Shown here piece after piece: positions 2 through 52,460 of a stretch of 64,000 nt of DNA. The stretch's first letter is position 1. Each line of letters begins with the position of its first letter. The notes under the pieces are model-generated. The model saw only the letters and a list, made by a program, of their open reading frames with translations. It was not told the DNA's origin and did no database searches. Made by a program: the position numbers and the translations under genes. This DNA is from Psammoneis japonica (taxonomy: Eukaryota), in assembly GCA_008632985.1 (NCBI GenBank), contig QPGO01000010.1, positions 806,001 to 870,000 of the forward strand, given 5' to 3'.

Positions 2-1456
2 GCCGAACTCAACAAGCTGGAGACATGGGCCACCGACATTGGCAATGCCTGCCTTGAAGCCACCACCAAGGAGAAGCTTTACATTGTAGCTGGACCCGAA
101 TTTGGCAAACTCGAAGGACACATCCTTGTCATCCACAAGGCACTGCATGGACTGCGCAGCTCCGGTCTCCGCTGGCACGAGCGCTTCGCCGACTGCCTGC
201 GAGCTGAAGGCTTCTTCCCCTGCCGCGCCGAACCCGACATTTGGATGCGCAGGAACGGCGACCACTGTGAACACATTGCCGTTTATGTGGATGACCTCGC
301 CATTGCCATGAAGGACCCTCAATCTTTCGTCGACACTCTCACGGAAAAGTGCAAGTTCAAGCTCAAGGGTGCGGGACCCATTGAGTTCCATCTGGGTTGC
401 GACTTTTCCCGGGACCCCGACGGAACCTTGTGCCTGTCTCCGCGCAAGTACATCGAGCGCATGGTCGACAGTTACGCCCAACTGTTTGGGGAGAAACCTG
501 CCACCAATGCCCTGTCACCTCTAGAGAAGGGTGACCACCCCGAACTGGACACTTCCAAACTGCTGGGACCCGATGGCATTCACAAGTTCCAGTCTCTTGT
601 TGGTTCACTCCAATGGGCAGTGTCCCTTGGTCGAATTGACATTACCACGGCTGTCATGTCACTCTCTAGCTTCCGAGCTGCGCCCCGTCAAGGCCACTTG
701 GATCGTGCCAAACGCGTCTGTGGGTGCCTCTCCAAGATGCGACACGGTGCTCTCCGCGTTCGCACGGAAGAGCCCGACCATTCGGATCTCCCTGCTCCGG
801 CCTATGAATGGATGCATTCCGTGTGTGGTGAAGCAGAAGAGATGATCCCGAAGGACGCTCCACCGCCCCTTGGCAAGTTCGTCACTACCACCCGCTGCGT
901 TGATGCAAACTTGTGCCATTGCATGCTCACCGGACGCTCTGTCATGGGAATGCTCCACTTCCTCAACAAATTCCCGGCTGATTGGTTCTCCAAGAAACAA
1001 GCCACCGTGGAGACTGCAACCTACGGATCTGAATTTGTTGCCGCAAGGAATTGTGTTGAGCAGATTGTCGACCTGCACATCACCCTGCGCTGCCTTGGCG
1101 TCCCGATCCGCAATGTTGGTTGCATGTTCGGTGACAACAAGTCGGTTGTAGACAGTGCCACCATCCCGCACTCCAAGTTACACAAGCGACACACCGCACT
1201 ATCGTTCCACCATGTGCGTGAGGCAATTGCCTCTGGTTGCCTTGAGCTCCACTTCATCGAAGGCTCCCGCAACCCTGCTGACATTCTCAGCAAGCATTGG
1301 GGTTACTCCCAAATCTGGGACCTTCTCCGCCCCCTCATGTTCTGGAACTTCATTCCATCCGAAGTCGAATCTGTTTCTGTGGCTCCTCAAGCAAACTGGG
1401 GAGTGACAGGATTTGAACAGGATTTGGATGCGCGCGAAGTGTCGCGCGCTGTTTAG
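2..1456 (+). CDS. pol: Copia pol fragment (reverse transcriptase + RNase H), open from the window edge, with many apparent Tyr->Cys/His changes
   Basis: Frame from nt 2 reads WATDIGNACL...KALHGLRSSG...IAVYVDDL...VDAN...TGRSV...WFSKKQATVETATYGSEFVAA...GDNKSV...NPADILSK, the copia RT/RNaseH motif series. Confidence 0.92.
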   Translation, partial: AELNKLETWATDIGNACLEATTKEKLYIVAGPEFGKLEGHILVIHKALHGLRSSGLRWHERFADCLRAEGFFPCRAEPDIWMRRNGDHCEHIAVYVDDLAIAMKDPQSFVDTLTEKCKFKLKGAGPIEFHLGCDFSRDPDGTLCLSPRKYIERMVDSYAQLFGEKPATNALSPLEKGDHPELDTSKLLGPDGIHKFQSLVGSLQWAVSLGRIDITTAVMSLSSFRAAPRQGHLDRAKRVCGCLSKMRHGALRVRTEEPDHSDLPAPAYEWMHSVCGEAEEMIPKDAPPPLGKFVTTTRCVDANLCHCMLTGRSVMGMLHFLNKFPADWFSKKQATVETATYGSEFVAARNCVEQIVDLHITLRCLGVPIRNVGCMFGDNKSVVDSATIPHSKLHKRHTALSFHHVREAIASGCLELHFIEGSRNPADILSKHWGYSQIWDLLRPLMFWNFIPSEVESVSVAPQANWGVTGFEQDLDAREVSRAV

Positions 1457-1680: not shown

Positions 1681-3500
1681 TTTCACATGATCCCTTTGGA
1701 CGATTTGGAGATTGCCCTCTCTGTCCCTCTCTCCACTTGCTCTGTGGCACAATCCTTTTGCTGTGGGCATGTCTGTGCTGCAGTCAGGTTGGCTGTGGCA
1801 CAAACCACGAGGAACCCCCAACTCAGAGTTTTGGGGCACCAGCCAGTCCCTGAAAACTCTGCTGGAGAATGGCAGCAGCTCCAGAGAGAGCTGCAAGGGC
1901 TGGGGGTGGTCGTGTGGTGGGGCTTGATTCCAAACTCTGCACTCTCTCACCTGAATGTGAGCAGTGCCAGCAAGAAAAAAAGTTGACAGGGGTGGAGCAG
2001 TGCTGGCTGCACTGTTGTCTGGGGCAGGGCTCTGTGTGGCCAGCAGCAGCACACACCCTGCCTTTGCCGTCTCCTTTGTTTGTTTGTGCACCATGCCATC
2101 TTTCCACATCTGCCTGCCTGTGACCTTCCATTCAGTCTGTCCATCTGGCGCAGCACAGGCAGAGCCTGAAAATGATTTTTTTGCTCTGTCCACCACAGTG
2201 CACTGTCTCATGGTGCGCAACTTCTCCTCCTCCTGCACAAATGCAAGCCTTGCCATGCTCTGGCAGCCTGCCTCCTGTTTTCACAACAGCTGGCCCAGCA
2301 CTGCTGTGAAGCAGAGCACACAGCTGCACCAACACACACAATGGGTCCACAACTGGGTGCTCAGTGATGGGGCCAATGTGGTGCGCAAAAGAATTTTGAC
2401 TCAAGCTCTGACAAAGACAGAAGGACAGACAGACACAGTGGGAAAACTGGCTGGGCTGCTTGCCATGGACAGAGGACCAGCAGCTCTCCCTCTCAAGAAC
2501 CACAGGTTTTGTCAGCCAGCCACAAAATGTCAAACAACAGCACCTGCTCACATTTGCTGCAAGTTCAATGACAGCAGCCTTTGCATCTTGACCAAAGAGC
2601 CACAAAGTGCAGCAGTGAATGAACAGCACTCTTTGCAACCTGGCAGCAGCCTTCTTGGACAACCTTCAGCCTGTTGCTCTCCAAGAGCTCTCTTGAGCTG
2701 TGAGCTTGGCAAGAAAATTGGTGAGTTGAAAAGGAGATAACTCTCCACCTTTTTTGTCAAAACAAACTCATTGCCATGGAGCCAGAGCTGGCACCACTCA
2801 ACAAAGAAGCACTTGGTGTGTGCAGCTGGCAGTGTGGTGGTGGTCAGCTCCCCCAGGTGCAGCACACCTTGACCATTTTGAACATTTGGGCACAAACAAT
2901 GGAGGTCCCCAAGAGATTTTGAGACATGTTGCTGAGAACTGGGACAACTTTTTGAAGCATCCTCTTCAAAGGCAAACTCATGCAAAGTGCACGTGGGGCA
3001 GCTCAATGCCCAGCTTGTTCAAGCAAGGGTCAAGCACATGACAGAGCCAGCTGCACTCAATGCTGATGGCCACAAGATGTCCACCACCAGCAGGGAAAAT
3101 TGTGCAGAATTTGAGTCCAAGTCTGGCTTGCAGTGGAAGAGACTTGCAAAACTGGCATCAAGCCACAACTCAAGATCCACCAAGAAGCTCAAGGGAGATG
3201 AGAACATGCCTTGATCATCCCATGTTCACAGGCATTAAATGACAGTCTTTTGACATGCTGGTGGCAGCATGCAACAACTGCTTTTGACTCAAGGTGAGCT
3301 GCAAAGCTTGGGTGACAGCAAGTGATGTGACACTCAGGGTGAGTGCAGGCAGACAAATGTGACAATGTTTCACTGATGTGAGGGCAGCTCAATGCTTGAT
3401 CAGGATTGCTTCCATTTTCCATTTCCTGTGCCTCCAGTGCCACCCACCCACCATCACCTTGAACACAAAGGCTTTGTCTTCAAGCACACACAGCTGCAGA
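1681..3500. other. TpA- and CpG-depleted degenerate repeat-like domain
   Basis: About 2-3 TA and roughly 10 CG in 1.8 kb; TG/CA-rich; only spurious Cys/His-rich ORFs. Confidence 0.8.
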
Positions 3501-18779: not shown

Positions 18780-21509
18780 GTTCAAATGTTGCAACAGTAT
18801 ATTAACAACAACCGCCATGAGCACTGGCACTGGGCACTGAGCACTGAGATACCATAGGGCCCTAGTACATGATGAATGCTGAGGATGGACAGACGGCATG
18901 CAAGGGCGAACTCGCTCGCTCGCTCGCGTCGCTCGCTCATTCACTGCGATGCTGGCTGCTCGCTGTGGTAGACTAGCCCCACGCAAGCTACAGGACAGTT
19001 TTGGCTGCTGTTTTAGCATGTACAGCAGGGCCCTACATGCCCTAGAGTGGCTGTGCTTGGCCTGTTGTCTTGCCGATGATGTGACAGGAACCGATTCAAT
19101 GTCTGCCATGATGGTCGCAGGGTCTTTTGTTGCAAAGATGCTCGCAAGTCGATCACGTGAAATGACAGCAGAGCAACACGGCAATCAAGAAAGGGTGGCC
19201 GCCCAACACCCACCAAAAACTTCCAAGCACGTTGTGATGACCACACTTTTTTGAGCTGCTTCCACTGTCCCCACCTCTTTTTGCTGTCCTCAATCCTTTC
19301 ATCTTGTTTGCGTTGTCCCTCATTTCCTCTTCCCTGGAATTTGCACTCTCTGACGATTCTCTGGTTTCCAGTGAGTGCTGCATCTTCTTTCTCCAGTGAG
19401 CTGGTCTTGTTTGTGCTGGCTGTTTCCTTCACCACTGTTGTTTGCAGCTCCAGTGGGGAGTGTCATGTTCTTTGCCAATTGCCCCATCCACAACAATGGG
19501 TGGGGCATTTCCCATGACTGCTGTGTGCAGTGCCCAGCATTGTCTCCACCGCCACATCTTGTGCGCAGCAGTTTCCATCTGCTCTGCTGCATCCACCCCT
19601 GTCACTGCTGTCTGAGCATTGCCATCTGCCACATCCACTGCTTCCACTTCTTCTTTTTTCACCATGTGTCAGCAGCAGCTGCCTCAGTCATGTTGATCAC
19701 AACACTGCAGTCTGCGGCCGGCGAACTTGTGTTTTTTGTCAATCTCCATTGCAGCAGCAACTGCTGCCATGTTGCTCCTGCAAGGCAACACTGATGTGAG
19801 AAAGAGCAGCACACATGCCATGTGCCGCCAACCACTGATTTTGTGCTCACCTTCCCCTGGAGCATTGCCGCTCTCAGCATCGTGCCCGCAGCTTGTGTTG
19901 CTGTCTTTTTCTGGCTTTTCCACCACGTTGGCCATCAGTTGACACCTCACTTCTTCCAGCTGCTTGGTGCTTGTGTCTTGTTCACACTGTTGCTCCATGA
20001 CCATCATGCGTGCTGTTGTCAGTGCGGCCATGGAATTCTTGTGAATCTTTTTCACCAAATGGGCGTCATCACCCAATCCTGAAAATGCATTGTGCAACAG
20101 TTCTGGCACTTGTCACATGCAGATGGGTTCCATGGCATGGCATGGCATGACATGCCAGTTGAGCACCTGCTTGCTTCTGCCACACACCTTGTCCAACAGA
20201 CCCTGCTTGACTGAATTTGCAATCCCGGAAAAACAACCAGCTTTGTGTGTGCTGCCATCTTTGCCTGGCACAACCATGATTTGAAAGTTGTTTTGTTTCA
20301 TGTGGGCCTTTTGCACCCCCACTGTCAGTGTCTTGCATGACTTGGCTTGGCCCACCATGTGTTGCACCTGCTTGAAAAATCTTGCTGCAGCTCCTGCACA
20401 GTCATCTGCCTTGATGATGCAGGTTGCTGTCCATCATGAATGCTGCCTTGAGACTCTTGAAATTCAACACAGGTGTCCCATCATCCATGTTCTTCACACC
20501 AGATTTGTCAGCAATCACAGGCATGATTGCACGCCACGCACTGTTGAGCTGGCGACAGTTCTTGCAGCATGCCTCAATTGTTGCTTTCTCTTGATTCTGC
20601 TCCTCTTCTGCAACCACTTGCTGGTGCATGGTGTCACACACCCAAGACACATTTTGGCCAGCATTGCATTTTGGCCTGGATTTCACACAACTTCTTGGTG
20701 TGAACTTTGTGGTGTTGTTCTGTGCTGTGGGTGTTGCACTGTGGCAATGGGAAGCAGCAAAGAATTCTCCCACATCCCCCTGGGGAGACTCAGCCAGTGG
20801 ATGGAGATTGCGCTGCCATGGACGTGGGAACATGGTGGCTCGTCATTTCCACAGAGTGCTTTCCTGTGCACTGCTTGAAGACAACAGCACATGCGCACAA
20901 TGTGGCGACAATGTGAGAACACCCCTTGCCATCTGTTGCCAGTTTGGGGGCAATGACATGTTTGCAACATTTGTGACTTGACAATGTGCAGCTGCATTTT
21001 GTGCTCATGCTCACCCGCCACATTGTTTTGCGTGTGTTCCTTGCAGACACTGTCTCTGTGTTGTTGTTGTGGGCTGCCCTGCAAGCAATTTTGTTTTGAG
21101 GTCATTGCCATTTTTTTGTGTGACGTTTGAAATGCTGTGGCTGTCATTGCGCTCTGTGGTCACAGCGCAATTTCTGTGCATCCTCAGCCCCTTCTGATGC
21201 ACCGCCCAGGCACCGTGCAAATGTTGCTCAAAGAAATGTTGTTTTTTGTTGCCACAGTTTCTTGACTCATTTCACAGGCACACTTTCACATTGATGTGGC
21301 ACTTTGAATTTTTTGTTTGATCATCTCACACTCAAAGCCACCGTTGTGGCACCAGCCCAAATGGCCAAAAAATGTGGTCCCGTGCTGACCACATTTGGCA
21401 ATGACCCCAGTGACCACATCACATTGCATCGCAGTGCACCTCTGTTCTTGTCCACAATGCAGCCACAGGCAGCAGGGTTTTCCCTTGCACTCAGCTGCCA
21501 TTTGTGATG

Positions 21510-21512
<3 letters not shown>

Positions 21513-21598
<86 letters not shown>
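21513..21598. repeat. (TG)43 microsatellite
   Basis: Perfect dinucleotide run. Confidence 0.97.
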
Positions 21599-21600
<2 letters not shown>

Positions 21601-22942
21601 ACATCATGCATTGTTGTCATGCCATTGTCTGGAGCAAAAATCCAGCTCAAATGCAGAGAGGCAAAAAGCACTGGAGTGCCTTGACCCAATCACAAAGCCT
21701 TGATGACTCAATTTGTGATGGAAGTGGCAATGGAACAATCAACGTGGCAACAAACAAAACACAGCAAGGTTTGGCACAGGGTTGGCAGAGATTTCTTGGG
21801 ACAAAAACCTCTCCCACCTTGAGCTTTTGAGAAGGAAGGACACTTTTCTTGTGGCCATCACCAACAACGCAGCTGCAGAAGATCCTTCTGACAACGCATC
21901 AGAAATTGTGCACCTGATGCCACACAGGGGGGGTGCCAAAATGCCACACAGGAAAGCGCGGTTTGCTGCAAAACAACAGCTCATTTCGCAGATGATTGCA
22001 ACGCCGGGGGGGGGGGGGGGCAATGTGAATGACTTGCCAATGGAGCGTGCATCAGATTTTGTGTCATTTGGTGAGGATGCCATTGGGTGCAAGAATGACA
22101 TTTAAACTGCTTGAGTGGGCAGTCATGAAAATGAAGATGCGCCAGCAGCGTGTGATGAGCCCACATCGGTGCCAACAATCTTGTTGATGATGGTCATGAT
22201 GAGTCCAAAAGAACAAACCCACAAGGTCAGGGAAAAAATGGATGGAGACATTTTAGAAGAAGAAACGTCCTTGGGCAACAAAGAGACGTCAAAACTGGAA
22301 ACACCCAACAATGAGTGAAACCAAAAAATGTCAAGAAACCTTCCCAAAAAGTGCAAGCCAGAACACATGTGAAATGTTTTGATGCTGGGGATGGCACACT
22401 CACCTCTCAATTCATCCACTCCCATTGAAAGCGCAAAGGAGGCAATGCTGGAGACAAAAGGCTTAAAAAATGTGGGCAGGGATGCAGTGAGAGGTTTCTT
22501 GCAACCAAACAACCTGTTTGGTTGATGTTTTCATGGCATCCAATTGTGGCAAACAAGGGCAATGTCAACTCTCCACAACACATGGATGCACATTTTGGTG
22601 GCCTCCATCATTTGGAAATTGGACAGCCTCTCAGATGCCAAATGAGCTCCAGTTTTGAACAGACAGCATGGGGCCCTTGCAACTCACCACCATTTTGGCT
22701 CAGTGAACACTTGGTGCAAGGCGATGTTTTCAAACACAGCATTGTTGGATTTGGACATGCCAGCAGGGCACCACTCCTGAAGGACAATGGGTCAATCATC
22801 CTTCCATTTGACAAAGAGGTGGCCACCCAAAATCTCAGCATGAAGCACCTGTGTTGTTTGCATTGCAACGCTGTGCATTTGAGAGAATCCAAGTTGCCAG
22901 GAAAGAACAATCTGTTGAGATGAATGCAGAGATTGGACCCAG

Positions 22943-23393
22943 TGCAGCATGCATGCAGACAAAAGGTTGTTTTTGTCACGCCCTTTGTGACATTTAAAGG
23001 CTGCAACACGTCGCCGTGACACATTGACTCTTGTCAGCAGCTGTGTGTTGCACTCCTCCCCATGCATCGCGCGTCCATGCGGCTCTTTACCAACGTGCAC
23101 TGACACTGCACGGTTTTGGCGGAACAGTGTGGGTGCGCACGAAGGAACACACAGAACTGCACAAAGTTTTGCGCGTTCGACAGTGATCAACGTTGCTGCA
23201 GACAACTCCCACTCAGGGTTTCGAACCCCTGGCCTCCTGCCCAATGGTTGCGATGAACCACTCCGCTGTGAATTCATTCATGATGCAGCATGCATGCAGA
23301 CAAAAGGTCATTTTTGTCACACCCTTTGTGACATTTAAAGGCTGCAACACGTCGCTGTGATGCATTGACTCTCATTGGCAGCTGCACATTGCA
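22943..23393 (-). mobile_element. Non-autonomous miniature LTR retrotransposon (TRIM), 451 bp
   Basis: 110-bp TG...CA direct repeats at 22943-23052 and 23284-23393; 4-bp TSD CCAG (22939-22942, 23394-23397); minus-strand PPT GGGGAGGAG abutting the LTR at 23053-23061. Confidence 0.85.
23203..23276 (-). other. tRNA-derived segment (Pol III A/B boxes) inside the TRIM
   Basis: Minus strand CAGCGGAGTGGTT (A box if CA<-TA) and, about 30 nt later, CAGGGGTTCGAAACCCTG (T-arm/B box hairpin); anticodon arm not recognisable. Confidence 0.5.
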
Positions 23394-25749
23394 CCAGTGC
23401 TTTTTTGTGAAGTTTTTGACAAGAACAACCAACCAGAGTTGCCAACTTGTTGTGCTGCAACTCAGCAGATGTTGCTGCAGAAATCTAAACTTGGTCAACA
23501 TGTGAAGAAGGAACAGGCCAAAAAAATGCTGGACACTGAATCTGTTTGCATTGCACAGCTGTGAAAGAAGCCAAAACCTCTTTCAACAAGCAAGACAAAG
23601 AAACAGCATGGCTGCAAGTCCAGAACACCAGCCAATGAGGAGAACATGGGGCTGCAACGAGCAAATGTGAGTCCAGTCATTCATCACTGGTGACGAGTCA
23701 CAATGACTCACAATGCATGCACCCCTCATCTTTCCAATGTGCCTTTCCTTGTCACCAACCATCTTCCAATGAAATGCTTTGCCAATGATGCACAACCAAG
23801 CACATTGTTGATCCCCCTCCCCCGCTTGCATTTGTGGTTGAATCACAGGAATTTTTGTGACAGTGCTGCTGTGTCCATCAACAACTCTTGCACTGGTTTA
23901 GAAGATGAAAGCAAGATGTGCTGTTTGCAATGAAAAACTGAGTGAGCACTCATGGAATGAGGCGCACAGCCCAAACAGGGAAACTTTGGTTGCCATGAAC
24001 AAGGAGATTGACAAAGAGATCTGGAGCTCCTTTGGCGCCATTGATGCAGGCTGGGTGACAACATTGTGCTCCGCAAATGCAATCAGCATGGCCTTGTCCC
24101 TCTGCAACAGAATTTGCACATCAATGATGCAACCCACTCCATTTCAAGATGCATCTCCAAACTTGCATGCATTGAAAAGCACCCAGACAGAGCTGCACAT
24201 TGTCAGTTTGGCACGCACAACTCAACTCAGCAGCACACAGCAACCACAGCACAAGAATTTTGCAGACTCACATGTGTTTGACAACGCCCAAGGAATTGGT
24301 GCTCACAAGAGATTGCAGTCATCTAGAAAACCGAGACAATCCATCACTGCCAACTGTGGTCAATGTGGACTCTGTTCTTGCCAGCAATGGAAAGCGATTG
24401 CTGGAAGAGCTCTGTTCCATCATGATGAAGTGGAGCACCCCACCAAGACTCAAGGAACACTTGCATCACCAACTTGTTGTTCTCCAGTCAGTGTGCCCAG
24501 TCTCTTGAGTGCACAAACTTGCCAATGAAGGGGAAAATGAAAGCAAAAGACAGCATCAACAAGCTGAGTTTGGATGTCCAATCAGCTCTTGCAGAAGCGC
24601 CACAGTCCACACATGTTGCTCTTGCCAACATGACAGGGAAAGGAATGGCATGTTCAAGGATCATTGGGTGCCAAAGGACCCACTGTGCTTGGAAGAACAA
24701 CAAGATTTTGAGAAGGCACTCAGCACAGGAAGGAGCAGAGGTTGTGTCAGAGCATTGTTTTGAGATGCTTGCCATGAACATGACTTGTGTTCTTGGTGAG
24801 GAATGGGGGGGCACATTGTGGAAGAAATGCACAGCTGCAATTGATTGCAAGGCAGGCTGTGGCACAACAATTGATGTGCCCAAGGTGGACACAACCACGC
24901 AACCTCATTTCACTGGTTTGAGAACAATGATCTCTGCGATGATGACAAAACAAATCAGATGGTTGAGTTGCTGGAAAAAAGGCACAAACAGTTGGCAGAG
25001 AGTGATGCCACAGAAGAAAAATGAAGGGAACATTTTTTGTGGGTGAGGAGGGAATCACAAAATTCTTGCTTGGGCTGCTGTGTTTTTTTCAAATGCACAA
25101 AGGAACATTTGTTTTTGAAACAATGGTGGATGCCAAGAACTTTGCACTGCACCTTGCAGCAGTGGGCAGCTGATTTTGGTGTTTCTGGCTAACAATGGTT
25201 TTTCAATCACAGTCAAGTTTTCAAGAAATCAGTTTTTAGACCACTTTCTCACCCTCCATGAGGTGCACAAGATGCATCCTTCCCTGTGCACAGCAAACTG
25301 TGCAACTTGGAAGCAAAGCACACAAGCCACAATTTGAAAGAAAGAAAAAGCAAGCACTTGAAATGGCACAGCTTCACCAGCAACAAATCATTGCAGAGCA
25401 CATTCTGATGTCATCTCTTCAGTGGTGGGCAATCATCACTGGGTTTTGGAGTTTGATTTGGGGGCCACTGGCTTTTGGCATTGGGCTTTCTGTTGGAGTT
25501 TCCAAAGAGTGCCGCTCTGGATTCCAAGTCACTTCACATGCATCACAGAGCAAACAAAGTGGCTGCCCTGTTTCCATGCTCATCCCAGCTGCCATGCAGG
25601 TTTCCCAAGTGGCTTTTTTGCAGCAACCAAAAAGGGTTGGTGTTCATGAGTGCACAACAAGCAACACAAGATTTTTAGAAATGGTCAACCCAACTTGTTG
25701 AATGAACTGAGGTGACAGGTGACAAGCAGCATGCTGCTGCTCATTCCCA

Positions 25750-27800
25750 GTGCCATTCACCATGCAAGTCAGGTGCATGAGCCATTGGGTCCAATCACAC
25801 TCCATTCAGTCAGACCCAACAACAATGCGGCATGCCAGAAGAGCTGGTGGGTCAGCCACCTCATGCACAAATTCTCCACTTTTGTCAAGGAGAGGCAAGA
25901 AGAACATGCATTCCCTCACAAGACTTGGGTTGTTCTTGAGATTTTCCCACTTGTCTGTGGAAAATTGCATTGCATGATTGAGTCCAAGGCACTTGGCACC
26001 AACACGAGTGGTCATTCGGTGCAGTTGGAAAACAACCTGGTGCATGTCACACTTGCAACAAGGAGCTGTGTTAGACTCAACCAATGCAGTGATGAGATTT
26101 CTGTTTTTGTGCAAGAGTCCTCCACAACCGCCCCAGCCATCAAATTGCCATTTGCCACAGCTTCTTGGAGAAAGCAGCATTGCATTCCCACATGCAGCAT
26201 TGGTCATCAAGCTTTCTGACAGGCTGTGGTTCTTCAACATGGAAGTGTGTTTGCAGCACACTGAGAATGCAAAAATTGATGATCATTTCCTGCTGACAGC
26301 AACCACCCTTCATGCAGCATTGTTGGAACAACTGGCTTGAGGTGGCACAGAAATCCCTCCACCCTGCCACTCCCTTCCCAGCACAAATGCAAGGGACCAA
26401 AAATGCTGGGTGCATTTGGAAGATTTAGAAGAGACAGGAAATTGTTCTTGCCTGTGAAAAAGCAGTCTTTGGTGACTGTTCTTGGCTTGTCATCAAGCAC
26501 ACAGAGCAAAGTGACAAGAACATTTTGATTTGCTGGTCCATCTCTTTCACAATCTCTGGTGTCATCTGGTTGGCTGGCTCTGGTTCCCAGTGCACTTCAT
26601 GCTCCATGTCTGCCAGGCAAAGCAGTGCCTCTCAAACAACTGATCTGCCCTCTGAGTTTGCTGTTGCTGTGCTTCTTGCACTTTGACCATGGACAGCAAA
26701 ACTTCTGAGCCTTGGGCAAAGTTGTTGCCAAACCTGCAACAGAAGGCAGAGTGCATGTGTTGCAACCTCAACCAGTGTCTGACAAAATCCTTCATGGTTG
26801 TCTTCACAATGCCTGGAATCTGCCAGAAGATGCACCATGATGTTGAGGAAAATGAATGTGTCAATGCCCAAATTCCCATGGAATGTGGCACAAGTCACCC
26901 ATGCCATCAGCATCAACACAGTTTGCAAGGTGGTTGATCTCATCACCGCTGAATGAACAATCCTTCAAAAACATTTTTGTGGTCTCTGTTGTCCACTCCT
27001 CTGATGAACACAAGTCTTTGTGGTGATCTCTGCTGCCTCACTGAACAAGTTGAAGTTTTGCATGTAAATGGACTTTTGCAGATCATTCCCTGGGTCAGAT
27101 GCAGCTGATGCTGGATGTGAAGATGGTGTGCTGCGATCAAGCAGGGAAGCACCAGGACCATCCATGTCACAATCAGCACAGGAGCCGTTGGGGCAAGGCA
27201 CATTTAGACCATCAAGATGTCTCTCTCTGCTTGGAGTGGAGTGTGCATGTTGCCAACAAGCAACTGTGAAAGCAGGAGGTGTGAGTTGAAGATGAGAGCC
27301 TTGCTTGGGACAGTCTTGCAACATGGCAAGCAGCTCTGCTGCTGCTTGAACCATGGTGCCAGTCTTGTGACAGCAAAGTTGGTGAGGATTGCTTGGGTCA
27401 CACAATTGGTTGAGTTCATCATGGAAGCAACCCCACATCAGCTGATGGCCAGTCCTTTTGTTGCCAAGAGAAAACAAAAATGAGTTGTTGTTGGTCTGCA
27501 ATCAACCATCACAACTTCAGCATGCATTGAAGTGAGGCTCAATTGTTGGAAAGGGTGTGTGTCATCTGCCCACACAAACACTGGGAGAACTGGCACAGCT
27601 GATGGGGTGCCACTCAGTTGAGTGGCAGCAACAATTTGCTGTGCTTGCTCAGTCTGACAGATGGAGCTGGTTGCACTGTCCTCTGCTTTCTCCACCGGCA
27701 CAATGAGTGGTTCAATGTTGCGTGACAGTCCAAGCACACATGAGACAGCATCTGAAACAAAGAGTGGCATGCATGCCCATGCATGTCAATGCCAACAGGT
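25750..27800 (-). pseudogene. Decayed CMC/EnSpm(Plavaka)-like DNA transposase
   Basis: Ordered remnant motifs across frames: VFVWADD, LQDCPK, GIVKT, NFLSLLNLP...FGPLHLCWEG...EGF...KP; boundaries approximate. Confidence 0.5.
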
Positions 27801-29234
27801 GTTGGCAGATCAGCGCACATGCTGGCCCACTTGCCCCCCAGAGTGCATGAGCATGCACCTCTTATGATGTTGGTGAGTGCAGGGTGTGTGCAGACCATTG
27901 TGTCTGTTTCAGGCAGATTTGTGATGCTGCAGATGAAGCTGCTGGGTGGCCAATGCAAATGAGATGATGGAAGGAGCTGCACCATCATGGCTGGCTTCAT
28001 CATCTGATGAATGTTGCAACAATGACAGCAAATCATGCTGGTCATCTTAACTTGCTGGAGTGACCAGGCCACCAAATGTTCAACTTTGCTGCCCAAGTCT
28101 CCACTTGAATTGCCAACAAATCATGCCATGGGAGCACCCTCAATGTGAGAAAACAACAAGGGATCATCATGCATGAGCACAAATGGGGCAGGAGAAGAGC
28201 TGGCATCTTGGGTCACCAAGAGCCAATGGGTGGCATTCATGCCAAAAAAACCTGGAGGAACAGAGCCAACATTGTTGCCATCTTGTGAGGGGCCATTGAA
28301 TGATGAAAAATCACCATCTTTGAATGAAGCAGGGGAGGCAACAACTGTGCTGGCTGAAGCAAGAGCAGGGTGGGTGCAGCAGTGGCAATTTTCATTGTGG
28401 CAGAGGAGAGCACATTGCTGAGACCTTGAGTGAAAGCAACCCACAACTGGTTTGCAAAACTGTTGGCATGAGTCACAAGCAAGTGTGGCAAAAACACCAA
28501 GCAGATGTGGTGCGTCCCCCACAAAGAAAATGAAGAAACCAGGGAAAATCGCCAAACCCGCCAAGGTGCACTTCCCACTGGTGTCTGCCACATGTGTGCT
28601 GCAATTGGGACAATCTTCAAAATAATTTGGTGCATTGTGACTGCCAAGGCCCAGCAAAGTGCAGGAGAAACAGTTGGCATGAGCGACAGCCCAGAAGGTG
28701 GAGCGCCAGCATGCCACTAAGATCAGCATCAGAGCACGATGCCATCATGTGCATCACAGCAAAACACAGTGTCAGCCAGCAGTCCAGTGAGTTGGACACA
28801 TTGTGGGGTGCACTGGCAGCACAAATGGAAGATGTGTTTTCAAAGGGTTGCAGTGTGTGCATCACAGGCAACGGGGGTGAGGAAGCAGCAGGTCACGAGC
28901 TCCTCGCTGCAGGCAGGGGGGGTGAGTGGGGGAAGACTCTGATCCAGATGAGGGGCACACCACTGGTGTGGGGGAACAAGTGACATTTGTTGCTGGTGTG
29001 TGGGGAATGAATTTACTGGCAGGGCCCATTGCAGGTAAAATGCCAGAAATAAGAAATGAACACTGTAACAGGAGAGGGAACCAGCAATGGCGCATGCATG
29101 CAATAAGTTTGGTGGCGGAAAGCACGCGCGCTTGTATCCGGTAAGACCGCGCCCACAAAAAACTTGCCTCAGCCCTCATACCGTAGCCCTCCAGCATCAG
29201 CAACAAAAAACATTGAATAGGCCAACCGGTGTAT

Positions 29235-29521
29235 GAAAAGAACCCACAATGGCGGTCGTTGACTGTGACCATGCGTGACCACGTGGTCACGCTCGCGTGA
29301 CCGCCGTGACCACGTGGTCACGAACGATTGAGAAACGGTCCTCAGAAGAAGTTTTCAAACGGAGCGCAAAACGTGACAAACGCATCTGCTCGAACCATAT
29401 GAACGCATCTGCTCGAACCATGAAAAAACTCGATGTTGCCACACACTGCCCGTTACCACAAGTCATTCATTGACAACTGAAATGGTCAAGATCGAATCCC
29501 AGCGCCAAAGGGAATGCAGGA
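29235..29521 (+). repeat. Direct duplicate of 30587-30857 (upstream region + first ~13 codons of the 30818 ORF)
   Basis: Near-identical from GAAAAGAACCCACAATGG to GGGAATGCAGGA, with an internal ~22-bp re-duplication. Confidence 0.9.
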
Positions 29522-37967: not shown

Positions 37968-38149
37968 GAGCCACTGATGTTGATTTTGTGATGGGTGATA
38001 GGTGTGATGATGTGATGGAACAAAAACAATAATCCAAAACACGTGGTGTCACTTGTACCACGGCCTCACGTAGATCCTACTTCCTTCGTACATCTTGGTA
38101 GACAATTTACGAGGAATGATCCATTGTCGGTCGACGATCAGACTAGCTA

Positions 38150-41100
38150 CAGCTTTCCCTGCAACCAACCTAAACGTCGTATTAATCCTACGTTACTGGT
38201 AGGAAAATTTATTTTTCATACAAAAAGCCACAGTAAAATCGCCAGCAGCGTTATATTTAAATCTTATCTATATTCTAGAGTTTTTTATTTACCTACAAAA
38301 AATATCTTTTCACCCCGCGAAAAGCGTCCTCACAATGAAACCCTTGTCAAAATCAATCGCACTGCGGTGCGTTTTGAACTCTTTGACAAGCTTTTCAATG
38401 GTCTCAAGAGACAAGGCTTCATGATGAACCTCTTGAGACACATCAGGTTGTGAAAGAACCATGTAAGCACAAATGCATCGTCGTGCTCGTCGCGAGAACT
38501 TTCGCATCCTGTCAGTCGTGAGTGCGCTTGATGACATTGATTCTCGTACCAACTCTCTAAAGTTTTGCTTTCCCCTCTTTCTTGACAAAGGTTGCAAACG
38601 ATAATGCTGCTTTGCCAGTCCCCAAGAACATTCAATGCCCTCCCCAGCCATTTCTGGGTGACACTTTGGCGTTCTGTCAATGGTCACACCCATTTTGCGA
38701 CCCATGGTTTGCAACAACGTCTCTTCGTTGACGAAATCATCGCAAGCAGCCATCAAGTGAAGAAGAGATGTTGACTTATTGATCTCTCCATCTTTGCCCT
38801 TTGCACCATCCACAGTGCATTTTCCAGGGTTGTTGGGATCAATCCATCCTCGCTCACACAAAATTTGCTTTGGTCCTTTCGGCTTGTTGACCCATCCGTG
38901 CTTCACCTTTTGAATGGTTTCTTCGACAGGTGTGTTGTTGCTCTTTGCCATGTCAATCAATTCATCCTTTTTCTTGCCCCTGATGTTCTTGATGTTCTTT
39001 TGTAGAAGCTTGTCAAAAATTTCATCACGCAGGAACTTCCGAGTTTCAGTTTGACCCTCGACAGGTGCGTCACATTTCTCAGCTTCTCGTTCTTCCGGCG
39101 TCATCCAGCATGGTCCCTGGTCTTCCTCACTGAATGCCATTGTTTGCACTTGTCCTGCAGACAACATGCCAACTGCTTCAGCATGAGGACCTGGAAAGCC
39201 CTCTTCCTGAAGAATCTCAGTGGGATGCATCTTGTTCTGACTGCCGCCGACTCCTGCGTTCATCGTGCGCTTGTTGCAGATTAGTCCGTCTGCTCTCTGC
39301 TTGTCGTGCCCGCAAGAATGATCAAAAAGGAAATGACAGTCAAATTGAGGATGCAGCACTTTCAAGCAATCCACGCAATCCTCCAATCGCACCAACATGT
39401 GGTTGTAATTCCAGCATCCGTCGCCATTCGCTCCACACTTGAACTCACGGATGAACGGACTTTTCTTCAACTTCGGCTCACGCTGCTTCTTGCTGAACAC
39501 TGTTTCTGCAGCTTCTTCATCAGTGTGGCATTTGCCTGCTCGAGTTTCATTCATCTCTCGGAGTTGCTCTTCCGAAATGTCTCCATCTCGAACAAGGCCG
39601 ACCTCTCGACATTGAAATGCAGACTGCATCACGCCTTCTCCATCATCTTTGGGCAGCAGCGGCCGCTCACCTTTGGGACCCGACCAGCTGCTTGTGCTCA
39701 GCAAGCATTGCTTAAAAACAGCCTCGTCCTGTCCAAATGTCATGACAGGCTTTACATTCGGATCCTTTCTCACACTTTCACTTCCTCCAAATTGCACGGA
39801 CAGCTTGGGCGCAAGGCTTGGATGCTCCGGGTCGATGACAGTGTCGACATGACACTCGACAAAATCTTCTCCATCAACTTGGCATTCATGCCCTGTTTTT
39901 GCTGGGAGAGCTTCAGCTTTGACAATGTCCATGGCAGTGGCTTTTGGAAGTTGCATCCAACGTGGGCATCGTTCTTCCATCATCAAGTGTCGACGGACCA
40001 TCGCATTCCGACACCTCACATTGTCGGGACGTTCATGATTGTCAACACAATGCATCTTTTTGTTTGGTCCATGCCGGAAACCAAATAGATTCATCCAGTT
40101 GGAAACTGCATTGGAAGAAATGCACAGTTGGTTTTCCCCGGTGAGCAATCCATGCTGATTCAGGAACTCCCGTTCCGACTCCAAGATGTCTTCCCTGTTC
40201 TTGCGACGGTCATTGTTCTCTCTCTTTAAGAATTCCGGGACAAGCACTTCGTGGAAGTGGTCTGTGGCCACCTCAGTGGAAAGTCGAGAAAGGTTTGCTG
40301 TCACAAACTCAATGAATTTCCTCTTCATCTTTGGATGTGCTTCAAATGTCGGTGGGTCTCCTTTTCCTTTTGGTCGGGGATGAGGAAAGGAGCTGAGATT
40401 CCTAAAGATGCGACACCAAGCAGCTGCGGTTTGGCGACTTTTTACAAAGTTAACACCTGCACCGCTGAGGTCATTGATTGCATGCTGACAGCAGTCAAGC
40501 CATGCAGTGTTCCTTTTTGGCAGCTTCTTCAACACATGGTCAAGCGCCATCGCAAGATGCTGGCATCTCAATCGAATCACATGAGCGTCGTTGGGTGTGC
40601 ACAGGTTGTCAGGGTCGCCTCCTTCGATCACTTCTTTCCATCCATCATGAAAAGCAAATCTAGAAGTCAATTTGTCTGTCTGTTTCTCAATTGCCTTTTT
40701 TGCATCCTCTCCATCATCTGCATTGAACAGGTTCCGCACGGTCATGTCATCCTAGAAGGCGCCAACAACAGCGGTCAAATCATCGGCAGGCATGGCATCA
40801 TTCTCAGGAGTGTCATCTTCATCAGCACCACCATCATTGGATGATTTCTCCTCTGTTGCAGAGGACTCTAGCAGTTCTTTCCTTTTCTTTTTCTTTCGCT
40901 CGTTTTCCTGCAACGTCTGTGTGCACTCGTTTGCGTCACACCCCACTGTTCTCTTGCTGGAGCCGGCTCGAGTTTCTACTTTCTTGTTGTGCTCTTCAAC
41001 AGTCAACATCACACGCCTGAGATCATTGATTGTTGAGGGCACATGCCTTGGCAATTCTTGCTCTTTGCAGGAACAGTGAGCCACAACAGACGGCTCTCCC

Positions 41101-41595
41101 TTCGGTCGGAACTGCTTTCGGAAAACCCCGCCATGGTTCTCAGACGTGTCCTTGTCAATGTCTGGAAATGGAGATCCAACTCTGCTCAAAGCACTGTTCA
41201 ACTTCTTGGCATTGAAGTTCAAATCTTTGTCAATTGTGTGGGCCTCTTTTGTCACATGCACAAAACAGTTCGCCTCGATCCATCTGCATTGGAACTTCGG
41301 CATCTTGAACGCATCCCTGAAATGCGAAGTGACAATGCCAGTCGGTGTCGACCGAGACGCTCTGATCGCATTGCCTTGTGACATTTTGATGGGTGTTTGC
41401 TGTCAAGCTGTGCAGGGGGATCAGAGAGGACTCAGCAGCAAAACCACAAAAAACGCCGATTCCACCAGCGCCATTGTCTCGTGCTTTTTCTCGTGCTTCA
41501 AGATTGTTGCGATGACGTCAAAGCGGACACGTCACAAAAATCTGGCATGTCCTGCACAAATTCTACGGCGTTTAGGTTGGTTGCAGGGAAAGCTG
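38150..41595 (-). mobile_element. IS630/Tc1/mariner-like DNA transposon, 3446 bp, full length
   Basis: 32-bp TIRs CAGCTTTCCCTGCAACCAACCTAAACG(T/C)CGTA at 38150-38181 and 41564-41595 (1 mismatch); TA at 38148-38149 on the left flank, CA at 41596-41597 on the right. Confidence 0.9.
38310..41384 (-). pseudogene. DDE transposase (~1024 codons) with one in-frame TAG at 40752-40754 and severe Tyr depletion
   Basis: The 210-aa and 811-aa ORFs share a frame; VDNHERPD, GQDE, FLFDHSCGH, TPKCHPEMAGEGIE.SWG, KTHR motifs; only 3 Tyr in 811 aa. Confidence 0.85.
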
Positions 41596-42172
41596 CAGAG
41601 AAGTGCGTGCGCGCAGTCAGTGGCACGCAAAGACACAGCAGACATCTTCGAATTTTGCCAGAGTGAGGCAGGAAGGCTTGAAGCATCCTCCCACTGCAAA
41701 TGCGTTTGAGACAGGGAGGAAGACTTGTGAACTAGAATGACACACAACTGCAACATCCATCTCTTCTACTGGCAGCTCCACCACCGTCCGTCATGTGCGG
41801 CAAAAAATTGTGAGGGTTTACGGTTGCGGGTTTCGATTTAGAGGATTTCAAAAAAGCTGAGTCTGAGTCAGTCGACTCGGGATTCAACAAACCCCGCTTC
41901 CCTTTCAATCTTGTGACGGCGTTCTGCTCAGGTTTGACAAGACCGAATCCAAGACTGAGTATATTCAAATCTTCATTTTCATAGACCATTTGGCGGGAAT
42001 TCCATCAATTTTACATACGGATTCAAAATATTTCATTATCGTTGAAGAACACGAGCACTCTATTTGAGTTGGGAATTTTTGTTATGTTTAACTAAATAGT
42101 TGAATGTAGATATTAATTTTATTATGCTGAAAAATTGGAATGGCCCGGTTTTTGTAATCATCAACTTCTAAT

Positions 42173-48343: not shown

Positions 48344-48519
48344 GGTTGTGCGGATAAAAGTAACTCCTGAGTCACGTGGTTACTAATCCACTCCCGCATC
48401 TTGAATAGCCGCTGTCGCCATTGTATCTCGTAGAAATCAACTTTTGAAGCGAAGCGGGAATCAGAATAAGGCTGTTACGCTTTCTAATTTCTTTTTTTCT
48501 AAGCAATAAGGCAGGCAGA

Positions 48520-48880
48520 TAGTCTACTGTAGCTACTCTACTCTAGCTACTACTCTAGCTAGAGTAGCTAGAGAGCACCGGTAGCTACTACTCTCTACTC
48601 TCTAGAGCTACTAGTCTAGCTCTAGCTAGTAGAGAGTAGCTAGCTACTGAAGCGCAGCGCAGATAGATAGGCCGGCTGCGGATCTAATCTACCGCGCTCT
48701 CTCTAGCTAGAGAGGAGCTAGCTAGCTAGAGTAGAGAAGTAGCTGGAGATACCGGTAACCAGTAACTCTAGTCTACTCTCTAGAGTAGAGGGCCCTCTAG
48801 CTAGAGTCTCTCTAGAGTAGAGAGGGTCTCGAGAAGTAGAGCTACATCCCTCTCCAGTAGCCCTAACTCTCTAGAGCTGT
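48520..48880. repeat. CTAG/AGCT/CTCT/GTAG-rich quasi-palindromic low-complexity tract
   Basis: Built almost entirely from CTAG, TAG/CTA and AGAG/CTCT words, with no fixed period. Confidence 0.85.
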
Positions 48881-52314: not shown

Positions 52315-52460
52315 GCTCGAGGGCCCTCTACTAGTGTAGAGCTAGAGTATTCCTAGTACTGTCTACTCTCTACTGTAGAGACTTCTAACTACTAGCTAGA
52401 GAGGGCCCTAGCTACTAGCTCTAGAGCTAGAGCTAGCTAGCTAGAGTAGAGAGAGTAGAG
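52315..52460. repeat. Second CTAG-rich low-complexity tract
   Basis: Same word set as 48520-48880, including GAGGGCCCT. Confidence 0.8.

What the first reader, a model, noticed from the sequence alone, without database searches (positions are those of the whole stretch)
22100..28720. Surviving TpA sites reveal the mutator's context: YTAR is resistant, implying a TAY target
Of about 18 survivors, about 15 are TTAA, TTAG, CTAA or CTAG (e.g. near 22102, 22254, 23486, 24324, 25237, 26426). YTAR is the only context with no TA-pyrimidine on either strand, so the preferred substrate is 5'-TAY-3'. That includes both Tyr codons. It is reminiscent of the UAC context of TadA-type deaminases and unlike ADAR's UAG preference; the enzyme link is inference only.
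Basis: partly seen in the sequence, partly recalled or inferred. Interest (0 to 1): 0.85.

Follow-up and report, generated by a model that had tools for sequence, protein, structure and literature searches.

The report
Flank-dependent TpA hypermutation in diatom repeats
Stretches of mobile or junk DNA in this diatom-like genome have had almost every TA (and CG) step turned into TG/CA, and the few TA left sit in one sequence context, which gives a fingerprint of the still unknown mutator.

Summary
Window 19101-29000 has TpA O/E about 0.03, CpG O/E about 0.15 and TpG+CpA O/E about 2. All 20 remaining TpA lie in 22103-28718, and 16 of them are YTAR, against 18% in the flanks (p=3e-9). None is RTAY.

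The loss is real mutation of the DNA in place:
- Conserved Tyr codons of two transposable elements in the window now read Cys or His.
- Two 115-bp direct repeats differ only by transitions, mostly paired TG/CA.
- Other copies of the element families keep TA where the window has TG or CA.

Loss rate is graded by flank. By 3' base it runs TAY > TAG > TAA, about 10:4:1, so RTAY goes first and TTAA (TYTARA) last.

YTAR sites do mutate. Half-sites convert to TG or CA about equally (9:5 in the window, 14:14 with three metagenome loci), so the 5' purine seems to matter as much as the 3' pyrimidine. The minimal motif is RTAY.

TpA-only hypermutation of integrated foreign DNA was reported in 2026 for Bigelowiella natans. 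Its main text gives no flank rule, and my searches found no diatom case. The enzyme remains inference.

The parts
19101..29000 (.). Deep-depleted domain in which both TpA and CpG are almost wholly replaced by TpG/CpA. No recognisable gene. Single copy.
   Evidence: TpA O/E 0.00-0.07, CpG O/E 0.04-0.43, TpG+CpA O/E 1.8-2.1. Edges fall at the last or first ordinary TpA, 19043 and 29014. Run X1 contigs cover 22006-22965 with 0 differences and 23367-29264 with 1 differing letter and 1 gap, at depth 56-66, like the flanks at 57-63. No Pfam family with a significant score in 96 ORFs (5 stray matches at E 0.0037-0.032, all under the curated cut-offs), and none in six frames read with X at stops.
22103..28718 (.). 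The 20 surviving TpA of the finding: 16 YTAR, 0 RTAY.
19044..22102 (.). Longest TpA-free run of the window, 3,060 bp between TpA at 19043 and 22103. It keeps more CpG than the right-hand part of the domain.
   Evidence: gap list.
22943..23394 (+). Small very high-copy element nested in the deep domain. It has 115-bp terminal direct repeats at 22940-23054 and 23281-23395. This copy was hypermutated after insertion.
   Evidence: Depth about 61,000 against about 60 for single-copy DNA, with loose ends at 22943 and 23394. The repeats are 100% identical in the purine/pyrimidine alphabet but 84% in nucleotides. Differences are six paired TG<->CA, two CpG->TpG/CpA and none a transversion. The family has TA where the window has TG or CA at 23079, 23091, 23098, 23135, 23138, 23150, 23171 and 23242.
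1751..3500 (.). Second deep-depleted domain (2 TpA left: ATAA, TTAA).
62251..64000 (.). Third deep-depleted domain, running off the window (2 TpA left: TTAC, TTAA).
2..1456 (+). Copia-type RT/RNase H ORF, lightly hit (TpA O/E about 0.25).
   Evidence: Pfam RVT_2, E=6e-17. 875 relatives below 1e-30, the best at 66% identity. At 11 conserved Tyr columns it has Cys 4, His 2, Tyr 4, Phe 1, while 200 of 216 other conserved columns are identical. Its 24 TpA include only 2 RTAY (p=0.006-0.013).
38147..41598 (-). DNA transposon with 35-bp terminal inverted repeats (38147-38181 and 41564-41598) and an 813-codon transposase-like ORF (38310-40751, minus strand). About 7-11 copies in the genome.
   Evidence: Inverted repeat at 94% identity. 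47 relatives of about 1000 aa, one from Fragilaria crotonensis and one named transposase. Depth 415-713. At 16 conserved Tyr columns it has Cys 8, His 5, Tyr 3.
38304..41950 (.). TpA-depleted interval in which CpG is largely kept. It is shifted relative to the transposon: it ends at the ORF stop codon on the left and runs about 350 bp past the right inverted repeat.
   Evidence: TpA positions: 25 TpA, of which 12 YTAR and 1 RTAY.
38150..38303 (.). 3' end of the transposon that is not depleted: 20 TpA in about 150 bp, 6 of them RTAY.

Best explanation
A mutational process acting on DNA in place converts TpA to TpG or CpA (A:T->G:C transitions) in chosen tracts of a diatom-like nuclear genome. 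The tracts include mobile elements and derelict DNA.

Its rate depends on both neighbours of the TpA. It is fastest at R-T-A-Y, intermediate at half-sites, and slowest at Y-T-A-R. Within YTAR it is slowest at TTAA or TTAG embedded in TYTARA. The TpA still present in 22100-28720 are simply the slowest sites of a nearly saturated reaction.

CpG is lost in the same tracts but more slowly. The likely cause is deamination of 5-methylcytosine, since diatom transposable elements are CpG-methylated.

Shown here: in-place transitions at TpA, the flank hierarchy, confinement to tracts with sharp edges, and equal use of both strands.

Inferred: the chemistry is enzymatic deamination of adenine to inosine in DNA by a deaminase that prefers R-T-A-Y, and the process serves as a RIP-like genome defence aimed by chromatin or RNA.
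For: Real mutation rather than inherited composition:
- Tyr is the only conserved residue class lost. In the transposase-like ORF it is 13 of 16 conserved Tyr columns, now Cys 8 and His 5, while G is kept in 30/33, D 16/17, R 15/16 and P 10/10. In the Copia ORF it is 6 of 11 changed to Cys or His, with L 26/26 and P 15/15 kept. The codons are TGY and CAY.
- It happened in place after insertion. The two 115-bp direct repeats are identical in the R/Y alphabet, differ by transitions only, and show six paired TG<->CA. The nested element's family keeps TA at 8 sites where this copy has TG or CA.
- Both strands are used: Cys:His is 10:8 in the transposase ORF and 7:3 in the Copia ORF.

Flank hierarchy:
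- Class survival in the deep domains is RTAY 0%, half-sites 2.2%, YTAR 19.5%. In the transposon it is 0%, 13% and 48%.
- The fitted rates are TAA 0.34, TAG 1.37 and TAY 3.27. The model without a flank effect is rejected at p=2e-14.
- Tyr codons preceded by R: 18 mutated, 1 kept. Preceded by Y: 10 mutated, 7 kept (Fisher p=0.016). Preceded by T: 3 mutated, 6 kept (p=0.001 against the rest).
- Among YTAR survivors the +2 base is A in 26 of 36 half-sites, against 226 of 650 in the flanks (p=1e-5).
- There is a staged series. The lightly hit Copia region lacks RTAY only, the transposon is enriched for YTAR, and the deep domains hold almost only YTAR.

Targeting:
- Edges are sharp.
- TA-rich intergenic islands at 48501-49000 and 52001-52500, and the 150 bp beside the depleted ORF, are untouched.
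- The young transposon has inverted repeats at 94% identity and an open 813-codon frame. It has lost about 85% of its TpA but kept most of its CpG.

Precedent and replication:
- All 231 de novo mutations in the hypermutable viral inserts of B. natans fall on TpA (bioRxiv 10.64898/2026.01.13.699255; abstract, Results and Discussion read).
- Metagenome locus L078 has TpA O/E 0.13, YTAR 6 of 13 and RTAY 1 of 13. At 18 conserved Tyr columns it has Cys 7, His 5, Tyr 2.
Against: - The ancestral NTAN make-up of the domains is unknown. Survival figures use the window's flanks as a stand-in, although 60 Copia-bearing loci give the same 17% YTAR.
- Survivors are few: 24 in the deep domains and 25 in the transposon.
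- Which base of a half-site changes is unsettled. The split is 9:5 towards the TAY prediction in the window and 5:9 against it in three metagenome loci.
- The tetranucleotide budget seemed to favour TAY->TGY: +33 per kb for YTGY+RCAR against +15.4 for YCAY+RTGR. It is confounded, because CpG decay is itself flank-biased (YCGR survival 7.5%, RCGY 27%) and would feed the same classes.
- The R-before-T effect on Tyr codons is not seen in the three metagenome loci (R-preceded 11 mutated, 8 kept; Y-preceded 14 mutated, 12 kept). Their YTAR or RTAY shifts are weak: L045 is not significant, and L048 shows only RTAY at p=0.036.
- The depleted interval of the transposon does not coincide with the element. 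Its AT-rich 3' 150 bp keeps 6 RTAY, which no simple model explains.
- No deaminase, inosine or base modification was examined.
- Only 40 of 701 variant rows could be seen.
- Run X1 is probably the sample from which the window was assembled, so it is not independent support.
Confidence: 0.72

Rival explanations
1. Same targeted TpA transition process, but the attacked base is thymine rather than adenine. For example, T in R-T-A could be oxidised or otherwise modified to a form that pairs with G. Alternatively the motif is read on duplex DNA as the palindrome RTAY by a modification-type enzyme.
For: A->G on one strand and T->C on the other cannot be told apart in sequence. RTAY is a palindrome, and half-sites convert to TG or CA about equally (14:14). 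That fits reading of both flanks better than a one-sided TAY rule.
Against: No thymine modification is on record for diatoms in the papers I searched, and nothing here tests it. A single-strand enzyme that reads both the -2 and +1 positions gives the same symmetry. The only published proposal for the same signature is adenine deamination.
Confidence: 0.17
2. The TpA seen today are not survivors. They are new TpA made from CpA/TpG by C->T transitions, for example at CAG/CTG, after the tract had been swept clean. On this reading their context reports the creating process.
For: 11 of the 16 YTAR contain TAG or CTA, which C->T at CAG/CTG would produce. TG/CA precursors are very abundant, about 250 per kb.
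Against: Precursor pools are not biased that way. In the deep domains ACAG+GCAG number 242 and CCAG+TCAG 136, yet no RTAG is present against 11 YTAG/CTAR. TTAA (7 of 24) has no CAG precursor. The TpA kept in both inverted repeats of the transposon, and the three Tyr codons retained at conserved Tyr columns, are ancestral TpA, and they sit in slow contexts. Even if some TpA are new, their persistence still needs slower removal in that context.
Confidence: 0.05
3. Editing at the RNA level (ADAR-like A-to-I on double-stranded transcripts of retroelements), carried into the genome by reverse transcription.
For: A-to-G clusters with a 5' U preference are the ADAR hallmark (review passage). Two of the affected elements may be retroelements (Copia, and the small element with terminal repeats).
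Against: The two terminal direct repeats of one inserted copy differ from each other, which points to change after integration. This assumes they were identical at insertion, and that is inference. A DNA transposon and about 10 kb of single-copy DNA are affected as well. Both strands are hit equally. TAG, the ADAR optimum, is slower than TAY.
Confidence: 0.03
4. Nothing is targeted. The tracts are foreign or old DNA whose composition (TA- and CG-poor) was inherited, or they reflect a genome-wide TpA mutability visible wherever selection is absent. Or they are a sequencing or assembly artefact of modified bases.
For: TpA is under-represented throughout the window, with O/E about 0.5-0.6 in genes. 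The only run that holds the tract is probably the assembly's own sample.
Against: Unconstrained AT-rich spacers next to and far from the tracts are TA-rich. Copies of the same families elsewhere in the genome keep the TA. Conserved Tyr are replaced in elements whose relatives have them. Contigs built directly from the reads of a run reproduce 5.9 kb of the tract at single-copy depth. From general knowledge, no known chemistry reads 5mC as T and a modified T or A as C or G at about 100% in one tract and 0% beside it.
Confidence: 0.03

Closest known systems
TpA-restricted hypermutation of integrated giant-virus and virophage DNA in Bigelowiella natans (Mettrop et al., bioRxiv 10.64898/2026.01.13.699255, 2026; abstract, Results and Discussion read)
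   Same: A:T->G:C transitions only at TpA, giving TpG or CpA by strand. The process is confined to particular inserted tracts. The genome holds clusters of TpA-poor, CpA+TpG-rich windows enriched for reverse-transcriptase and DDE domains and for unannotated ORFs. An adenine deaminase is proposed.
   Different: - The host here is diatom-like (stramenopile), not a chlorarachniophyte.
- The targets seen are a Copia element, a DNA transposon, a small high-copy element and unidentifiable DNA, not recognisable viral inserts.
- Depletion is near saturation (O/E about 0.03, against Rho 0.45 for their giant-virus region).
- CpG is lost in the same tracts.
- A flank hierarchy is resolved here. Their main text has no use of 'context', 'flanking', 'trinucleotide' or 'CpG'. 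Their figure 2B and supplementary tables could not be seen.
- No de novo events could be observed here.
Repeat-induced point mutation (RIP) of ascomycete fungi
   Same: A dinucleotide-specific transition storm confined to mobile or duplicated DNA with sharp edges. It leaves degenerate, gene-free tracts and is read as genome defence.
   Different: RIP turns CpA into TpA and so enriches TpA (abstracts in the listing); here TpA is destroyed. RIP needs duplicated sequence, whereas the 10-kb tract here is single copy today. RIP makes stop codons, while this process removes TAA and TAG and cannot create a stop from a sense codon (this follows from the genetic code). RID-like DNMT4 genes exist in many diatoms with unknown function (passages of PMC9998398); none was examined here.
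CpG decay by deamination of 5-methylcytosine in methylated transposable elements
   Same: It explains the CpG->TpG/CpA half of the deep domains. Diatom transposable elements are CpG-methylated through DNMT5a (abstract and passages of PMC9998398).
   Different: It cannot remove TpA. The transposon shows that TpA loss runs ahead of CpG loss.
TadA/ADAT2-type adenine deaminases, and ADAR
   Same: The 5' T of the mutated A matches the U33-A34 of tRNA substrates and the 5' U preference of ADAR. The 3' pyrimidine preference resembles the ACG anticodon context tabulated for TadA/ADAT2 (review passage).
   Different: - TAG, the ADAR optimum, is about 2.4 times slower than TAY.
- A purine at -2 seems to matter as much as the 3' base. 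This is not a described feature of these enzymes as far as I recall.
- From general knowledge, eukaryotic ADAT2/3 substrates mostly carry a purine after A34.
- No enzyme was tested.

Membership tests
TpA-directed hypermutation of inserted DNA (B. natans type) | Changes are A:T->G:C transitions at TpA, giving TpG or CpA | tested here: met
   Tyr TAY has become TGY or CAY at 28 of 36 Tyr codons in two elements. The paired direct repeats differ by transitions only, six of them TG<->CA pairs. The family has TA where the window has TG or CA at 8 sites.
TpA-directed hypermutation of inserted DNA (B. natans type) | TpA depletion coupled to CpA+TpG enrichment in clustered windows | tested here: met
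   TpA O/E 0.00-0.07 with TpG+CpA O/E 1.8-2.1 over 10 consecutive 1-kb bins.
TpA-directed hypermutation of inserted DNA (B. natans type) | Confined to inserted foreign or mobile sequence, not genome-wide | tested here: met
   Edges are sharp, and neighbouring genes and TA-rich spacers are untouched. Three of the affected units are mobile elements. The origin of the 10-kb tract is unknown.
TpA-directed hypermutation of inserted DNA (B. natans type) | Very high de novo rate seen in mutation-accumulation lines | not testable with these tools
   No genome, lines or population data are held. Only one run holds the tract.
Fungal RIP | C->T at CpA, raising TpA | tested here: not met
   TpA is removed, not made.
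Fungal RIP | Acts on duplicated sequence | tested here: inconclusive
   The transposon (7-11 copies) and the small element (about 1000 copies) are repeated, but the 10-kb tract is at single-copy depth today.
ADAR-type RNA hyperediting fixed by retrotransposition | Changes arise before integration, on one strand, with a 3' G optimum | tested here: not met
   Repeats of one insertion differ from each other (that they were identical at insertion is inferred). Cys:His is 10:8 in the transposase ORF. TAG is slower than TAY. A DNA transposon is affected.
TadA/ADAT-type deaminase signature | 5' U/T and a 3' C (UACG-like) around the target A | tested here: inconclusive
   The 5' T is met by definition, and a 3' Y is preferred (rates C 2.94, T 3.69 against G 1.37, A 0.33). 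But half-site events do not follow the 3' base alone (9:5 in the window, 14:14 overall). No protein was examined.
5mC-driven CpG decay | CpG->TpG/CpA in methylated repeats | tested here: met
   CpG O/E is 0.04-0.43 in the deep domains. There are CpG/TpG and CpG/CpA differences between the direct repeats and between family copies. Methylation itself was not testable.

The most novel reading that the evidence does not exclude
Diatoms and chlorarachniophytes, and perhaps much of the SAR clade, share a dedicated DNA mutator that erases TpA from silenced mobile and viral DNA. It would most plausibly be a natural DNA adenine deaminase with an R-T-A-Y preference. It would act as a mirror image of fungal RIP and run alongside CpG methylation. 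The flank hierarchy found here (RTAY > CTAY/RTAG > TTAY/RTAA > CTAG > TTAG > TTAA) is its enzymatic fingerprint. That fingerprint can be used to pick out the enzyme and to find its traces in any genome or metagenome.
Probability: 0.35. Interest if true: 0.85.

Novelty: new member of a known kind. Interest (0 to 1): 0.62.

Why it matters
- **Enzymology.** If the process is enzymatic, it is a natural activity that changes A:T to G:C in chromosomal DNA with a defined four-base preference. That matters both for genome-defence biology and as a possible source of DNA adenine-editing enzymes.
- **Breadth.** It would extend a phenomenon known from one preprint on one chlorarachniophyte to diatoms, a major algal group. 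It would also show that transposable elements, not only viral inserts, are targets.
- **A testable fingerprint.** The flank rule can be checked on the published de novo mutations of B. natans and on candidate deaminases.
- **Annotation.** The process removes TAA and TAG and never creates a stop, so hypermutated tracts carry long false ORFs without tyrosine (for example 813 codons here). Such Tyr-less Copia ORFs are already in public metagenome protein sets.

Tried and rejected
- **Dinoflagellate lead.** A 13-base string at 22690 resembled a spliced-leader relic. It occurs once, and 16 of 100 shuffles do as well. The named relatives of host genes are diatoms, so the lead was dropped.
- **Own genome.** None is held, so no genome-wide NTAN table or family consensus could be made.
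- **RNA genes.** No tRNA in the window and no Rfam family above chance in 18-30 kb.
- **Coding content of the deep domains.** 96 ORFs of at least 80 aa gave five matches at E 0.0037-0.032, all below the curated Pfam cut-offs, so I treat them as chance. Six-frame readings of all three deep domains with X at stops gave no Pfam family at all. The origin of these domains remains unknown.
- **Paralogues inside the window.** Ordinary self-BLAST and a purine/pyrimidine-alphabet search found no paralogue pair between depleted and undepleted DNA. They found only the 115-bp repeats and the transposon's inverted repeats.
- **Expression.** No RNA holder was listed for the tract. Run X2 behaves like RNA, with spliced joints at 36789/36880 and 37134/37222. 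It has almost no cover on the depleted tracts apart from the high-copy element (depth 55 in bin 22667-23333; about 1 in one other bin). Absent cover is not evidence, so nothing is claimed from it.
- **Variant table.** One search showed 40 of 701 rows and cannot be repeated. A full polarised spectrum was therefore not obtained.
- I first read it as proof of TAY->TGY. I withdrew that as decisive after finding that CpG decay is flank-biased in the same direction and that codon-polarised events split evenly.
- **Metagenome loci.** The first alignment, A2, was too diverse for the scan. A3 gave 79 loci. Only L078 is strongly depleted, with L045 and L048 mildly so. None has a nucleotide relative closer than about 70%, so only Tyr codons could be polarised.
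- **Earlier notes of this scan.** Nothing found.
- **Literature.** Four searches found no report of TpA hypermutation in diatoms. Supplements of the B. natans preprint are closed, so its list of mutated sites could not be checked for flanks.

Full report
**What is there.** The window is from a eukaryote with intron-poor genes. Named relatives of a BRAP2-like ORF are all pennate diatoms at 44-52% identity. No whole genome is held. Three tracts (1751-3500, 19101-29000, 62251-64000) have TpA O/E 0.00-0.07, CpG O/E mostly 0.04-0.3 and TpG+CpA O/E 1.7-2.1. Ordinary flank bins mostly show about 0.4-0.8, 0.7-1.2 and 1.0-1.3; other TpA-depleted or TA-rich stretches of the window fall outside these ranges. 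The gain in TG+CA (about 90 per kb) matches the loss of TA+CG (about 83 per kb). A fourth tract (38304-41950) has lost TpA but kept most of its CpG.

**The observation.** In 19101-29000 there are 20 TpA, all between 22103 and 28718. Sixteen are YTAR and none is RTAY.
- Flanks: 327 of 1807 TpA are YTAR (18.1%), p=3e-9.
- Counting the duplicated TTAA once: 15 of 19, p=1.3e-8.
- Null from the tract's own dinucleotides: expected 0.30, p=5.6e-6.
- 60 undepleted Copia-bearing metagenome loci have 17.1% YTAR.

**It is mutation, in place, on DNA.**
1. The 813-codon ORF at 38310-40751 (minus strand) belongs to a family of about 1000-aa transposase-like proteins (47 hits). It lies between 35-bp inverted repeats. 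At 16 columns where relatives conserve Tyr it has Cys 8, His 5 and Tyr 3, while other conserved residues are kept (G 30/33, D 16/17, P 10/10). The codons are TGY and CAY.
2. The Copia RT/RNase H ORF at 2-1456 (875 relatives below 1e-30) has Cys 4, His 2, Tyr 4 and Phe 1 at 11 conserved Tyr columns. Of the other conserved columns, 200 of 216 are identical.
3. The 115-bp direct repeats at 22940-23054 and 23281-23395 flank the core of a small element present at about 1000-fold depth. They are identical in the purine/pyrimidine alphabet but 84% identical in nucleotides. Their differences are six adjacent TG<->CA pairs and two CpG decays, with no transversion. If the repeats were identical at insertion, which is inferred, the changes arose afterwards.
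4. Contigs of run X1 show other copies of that element with TA where the window has TG or CA at eight sites. They show the same for the transposon at five sites, and the converse at two.
5. The 10-kb tract is covered by read-derived contigs at single-copy depth with one difference in 5.9 kb. That run is probably the assembly's own sample.

**The flank rule.** Survival relative to flank composition is RTAY 0%, half-sites 2.2% and YTAR 19.5% in the deep tracts. In the transposon it is 0%, 13% and 48%. I fitted a Poisson model in which each strand's 3' neighbour adds to the loss rate.
- The model with no flank effect is rejected (likelihood ratio 58.2, p=2e-14).
- Three rates fit better than a purine/pyrimidine split (p=4e-4): TAA 0.34, TAG 1.37, TAY 3.27.
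- The transposon has had about 0.47 of the exposure of the deep tracts.

Of the 24 deep survivors, 23 contain TTA/TAA, and CTAG survives no better than half-sites (1 seen for 29 expected). Among YTAR survivors the next base outward is A in 26 of 36 half-sites, against 226 of 650 in the flanks (p=1e-5). The slowest sites therefore look like TYTARA.

Tyr codons give independent support:

| Base before the Tyr codon | Mutated | Kept |
|---|---|---|
| R | 18 | 1 |
| Y (all) | 10 | 7 |
| T | 3 | 6 |
| C | 7 | 1 |

Fisher tests give p=0.016 for R against Y, and p=0.001 for T against the rest.

The window also shows a staged series. The Copia region (O/E about 0.25) lacks RTAY only, with 2 of 24. The transposon is enriched for YTAR. 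The deep tracts are nearly pure YTAR.

The tetranucleotide budget seemed to say so: +33 per kb for YTGY+RCAR against +15.4 per kb for YCAY+RTGR. Directly polarised half-site events are:
- Y-preceded Tyr codons in the window: Cys 6, His 4.
- Family-polarised sites in the window: 3 as predicted, 1 against.
- Three metagenome loci: Cys 5, His 9.

That is 9:5 in the window and 14:14 overall. It is compatible with 50-70% and poorly compatible with 85% or more. YTAR sites are also seen to mutate (CTAA->CCAA twice, TTAG->TCAG once, CTAG->CCAG twice). The safest statement is that both flanks count and RTAY is the preferred tetranucleotide. Sequence cannot tell whether A or T is the base attacked.

**Targeting.**
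- Edges are sharp: 19043, 29014 and 38303.
- TA-rich spacers are untouched.
- The transposon's depleted interval ends exactly at the ORF stop and leaves 20 TpA, 6 of them RTAY, in the element's last 150 bp. It runs about 350 bp beyond the other inverted repeat. The target is thus not simply "the repeated sequence". A transcription unit or a chromatin domain is a guess.
- TpA loss outruns CpG loss in this young element.
- Both strands are used: Cys:His is 10:8 in the transposase ORF.

**Known relatives.** A 2026 preprint on Bigelowiella natans reports 231 de novo mutations in two integrated viral regions. All fall on TpA and all but one are A:T->G:C. It also reports 124 TpA-poor, CpA+TpG-rich clusters and proposes an ADAT2-like deaminase. 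Its main text does not treat flanks or CpG, and its figures and supplements were not visible. Four literature searches found no diatom report. Fungal RIP is the mirror image, because it makes TpA. Diatom transposable elements are CpG-methylated by DNMT5a, and many diatoms carry RID-like DNMT4 of unknown function (passages).

**Beyond the window.**
- Several of the 150 best Copia relatives in public protein sets have little or no Tyr and raised Cys and His. P0213 and P0263 have 0% Tyr, and there is Cys or His at conserved Tyr columns in 7 of 9 proteins checked. They come from ENA and JGI assemblies.
- Of 79 related metagenome loci, L078 is strongly depleted (O/E 0.13). It has YTAR 6 of 13 (p=0.015), RTAY 1 of 13 (p=0.04), and Cys 7, His 5, Tyr 2 at 18 conserved Tyr columns.
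- L045 and L048 are mildly depleted and show weak or no flank shift. The R-before-T effect on Tyr codons is not seen in these three loci (11 mutated and 8 kept for R, against 14 and 12 for Y).

**Limits.**
- This is one window with 49 survivors.
- The ancestral composition is assumed, not known.
- The variant table is truncated.
- There are no independent reads.
- No enzyme or base chemistry was tested.

The phenomenon and its flank dependence are well supported. The enzyme and the purpose are inferred.

Noticed in passing
window 38147-41598: DNA transposon with 35-bp inverted repeats. Its roughly 1000-aa transposase-like protein family matches no Pfam model. It has 47 relatives, mostly in metagenomes, with one from Fragilaria crotonensis. 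This may be an undescribed transposase family of diatoms.
   Followed up: partly
window 22943-23394: Element of about 450 bp with 115-bp terminal direct repeats, at about 1000 times single-copy depth in run X1 (LTR-miniature-like). It has no tRNA or Rfam match. Its core keeps 17 CpG per 250 bp inside an otherwise CpG-poor tract, so it is a younger insertion.
   Followed up: partly
window 38150-38303: The 3' end of the transposon keeps 20 TpA, 6 of them RTAY, although the adjoining ORF has lost about 85% of its TpA. The depletion stops exactly at the stop codon. This is unexplained.
   Followed up: partly
deep domains 1751-3500, 19101-29000, 62251-64000: Surviving CpG are also context-biased, in the opposite sense to TpA. 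YCGR survival is 7.5%, half-sites 13-16% and RCGY 27%, implying faster C->T at Y-C-G.
   Followed up: partly
window 19044-22102 against 22103-29000: The left 3 kb of the tract has no TpA at all but more CpG (O/E 0.19-0.32). The right part has TpA survivors but fewer CpG (0.04-0.16 in most bins). The tract is probably two units with different histories.
   Followed up: no
depleted tracts generally; ORFs 38310-40751, 23902-24528, 28121-28744: TpA->TpG/CpA removes TAA and TAG and cannot create a stop from a sense codon. Hypermutated DNA therefore carries long open frames without Tyr that gene callers will report as proteins.
   Followed up: partly
proteins P0213, P0263, P0265, P0305, P0190; locus L078:1-1943: Public metagenome assemblies (ENA, JGI) hold Copia RT ORFs with 0-2% Tyr and with Cys or His at conserved Tyr columns. 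L078 has TpA O/E 0.13 with no in-frame stop. The same process seems to be at work in other, unnamed organisms.
   Followed up: partly
window 36789-36880 and 37134-37222: Run X2 contigs skip 90 and 87 bases with CT..AC ends, which read as GT..AG on the minus strand. These are two short introns of a minus-strand host gene at about 36.5-38.0 kb.
   Followed up: no
window 21480-21570 and 22006-22021: A (TG)n microsatellite of about 60-80 bp and a run of about 16 G lie inside the deep tract.
   Followed up: no
window 48501-49000 and 52001-52500: These are TA-rich islands (68 and 69 TpA per 500 bp, O/E about 1.1-1.2) in ordinary intergenic DNA. They show that TpA is not generally unstable in this genome.
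   Followed up: no
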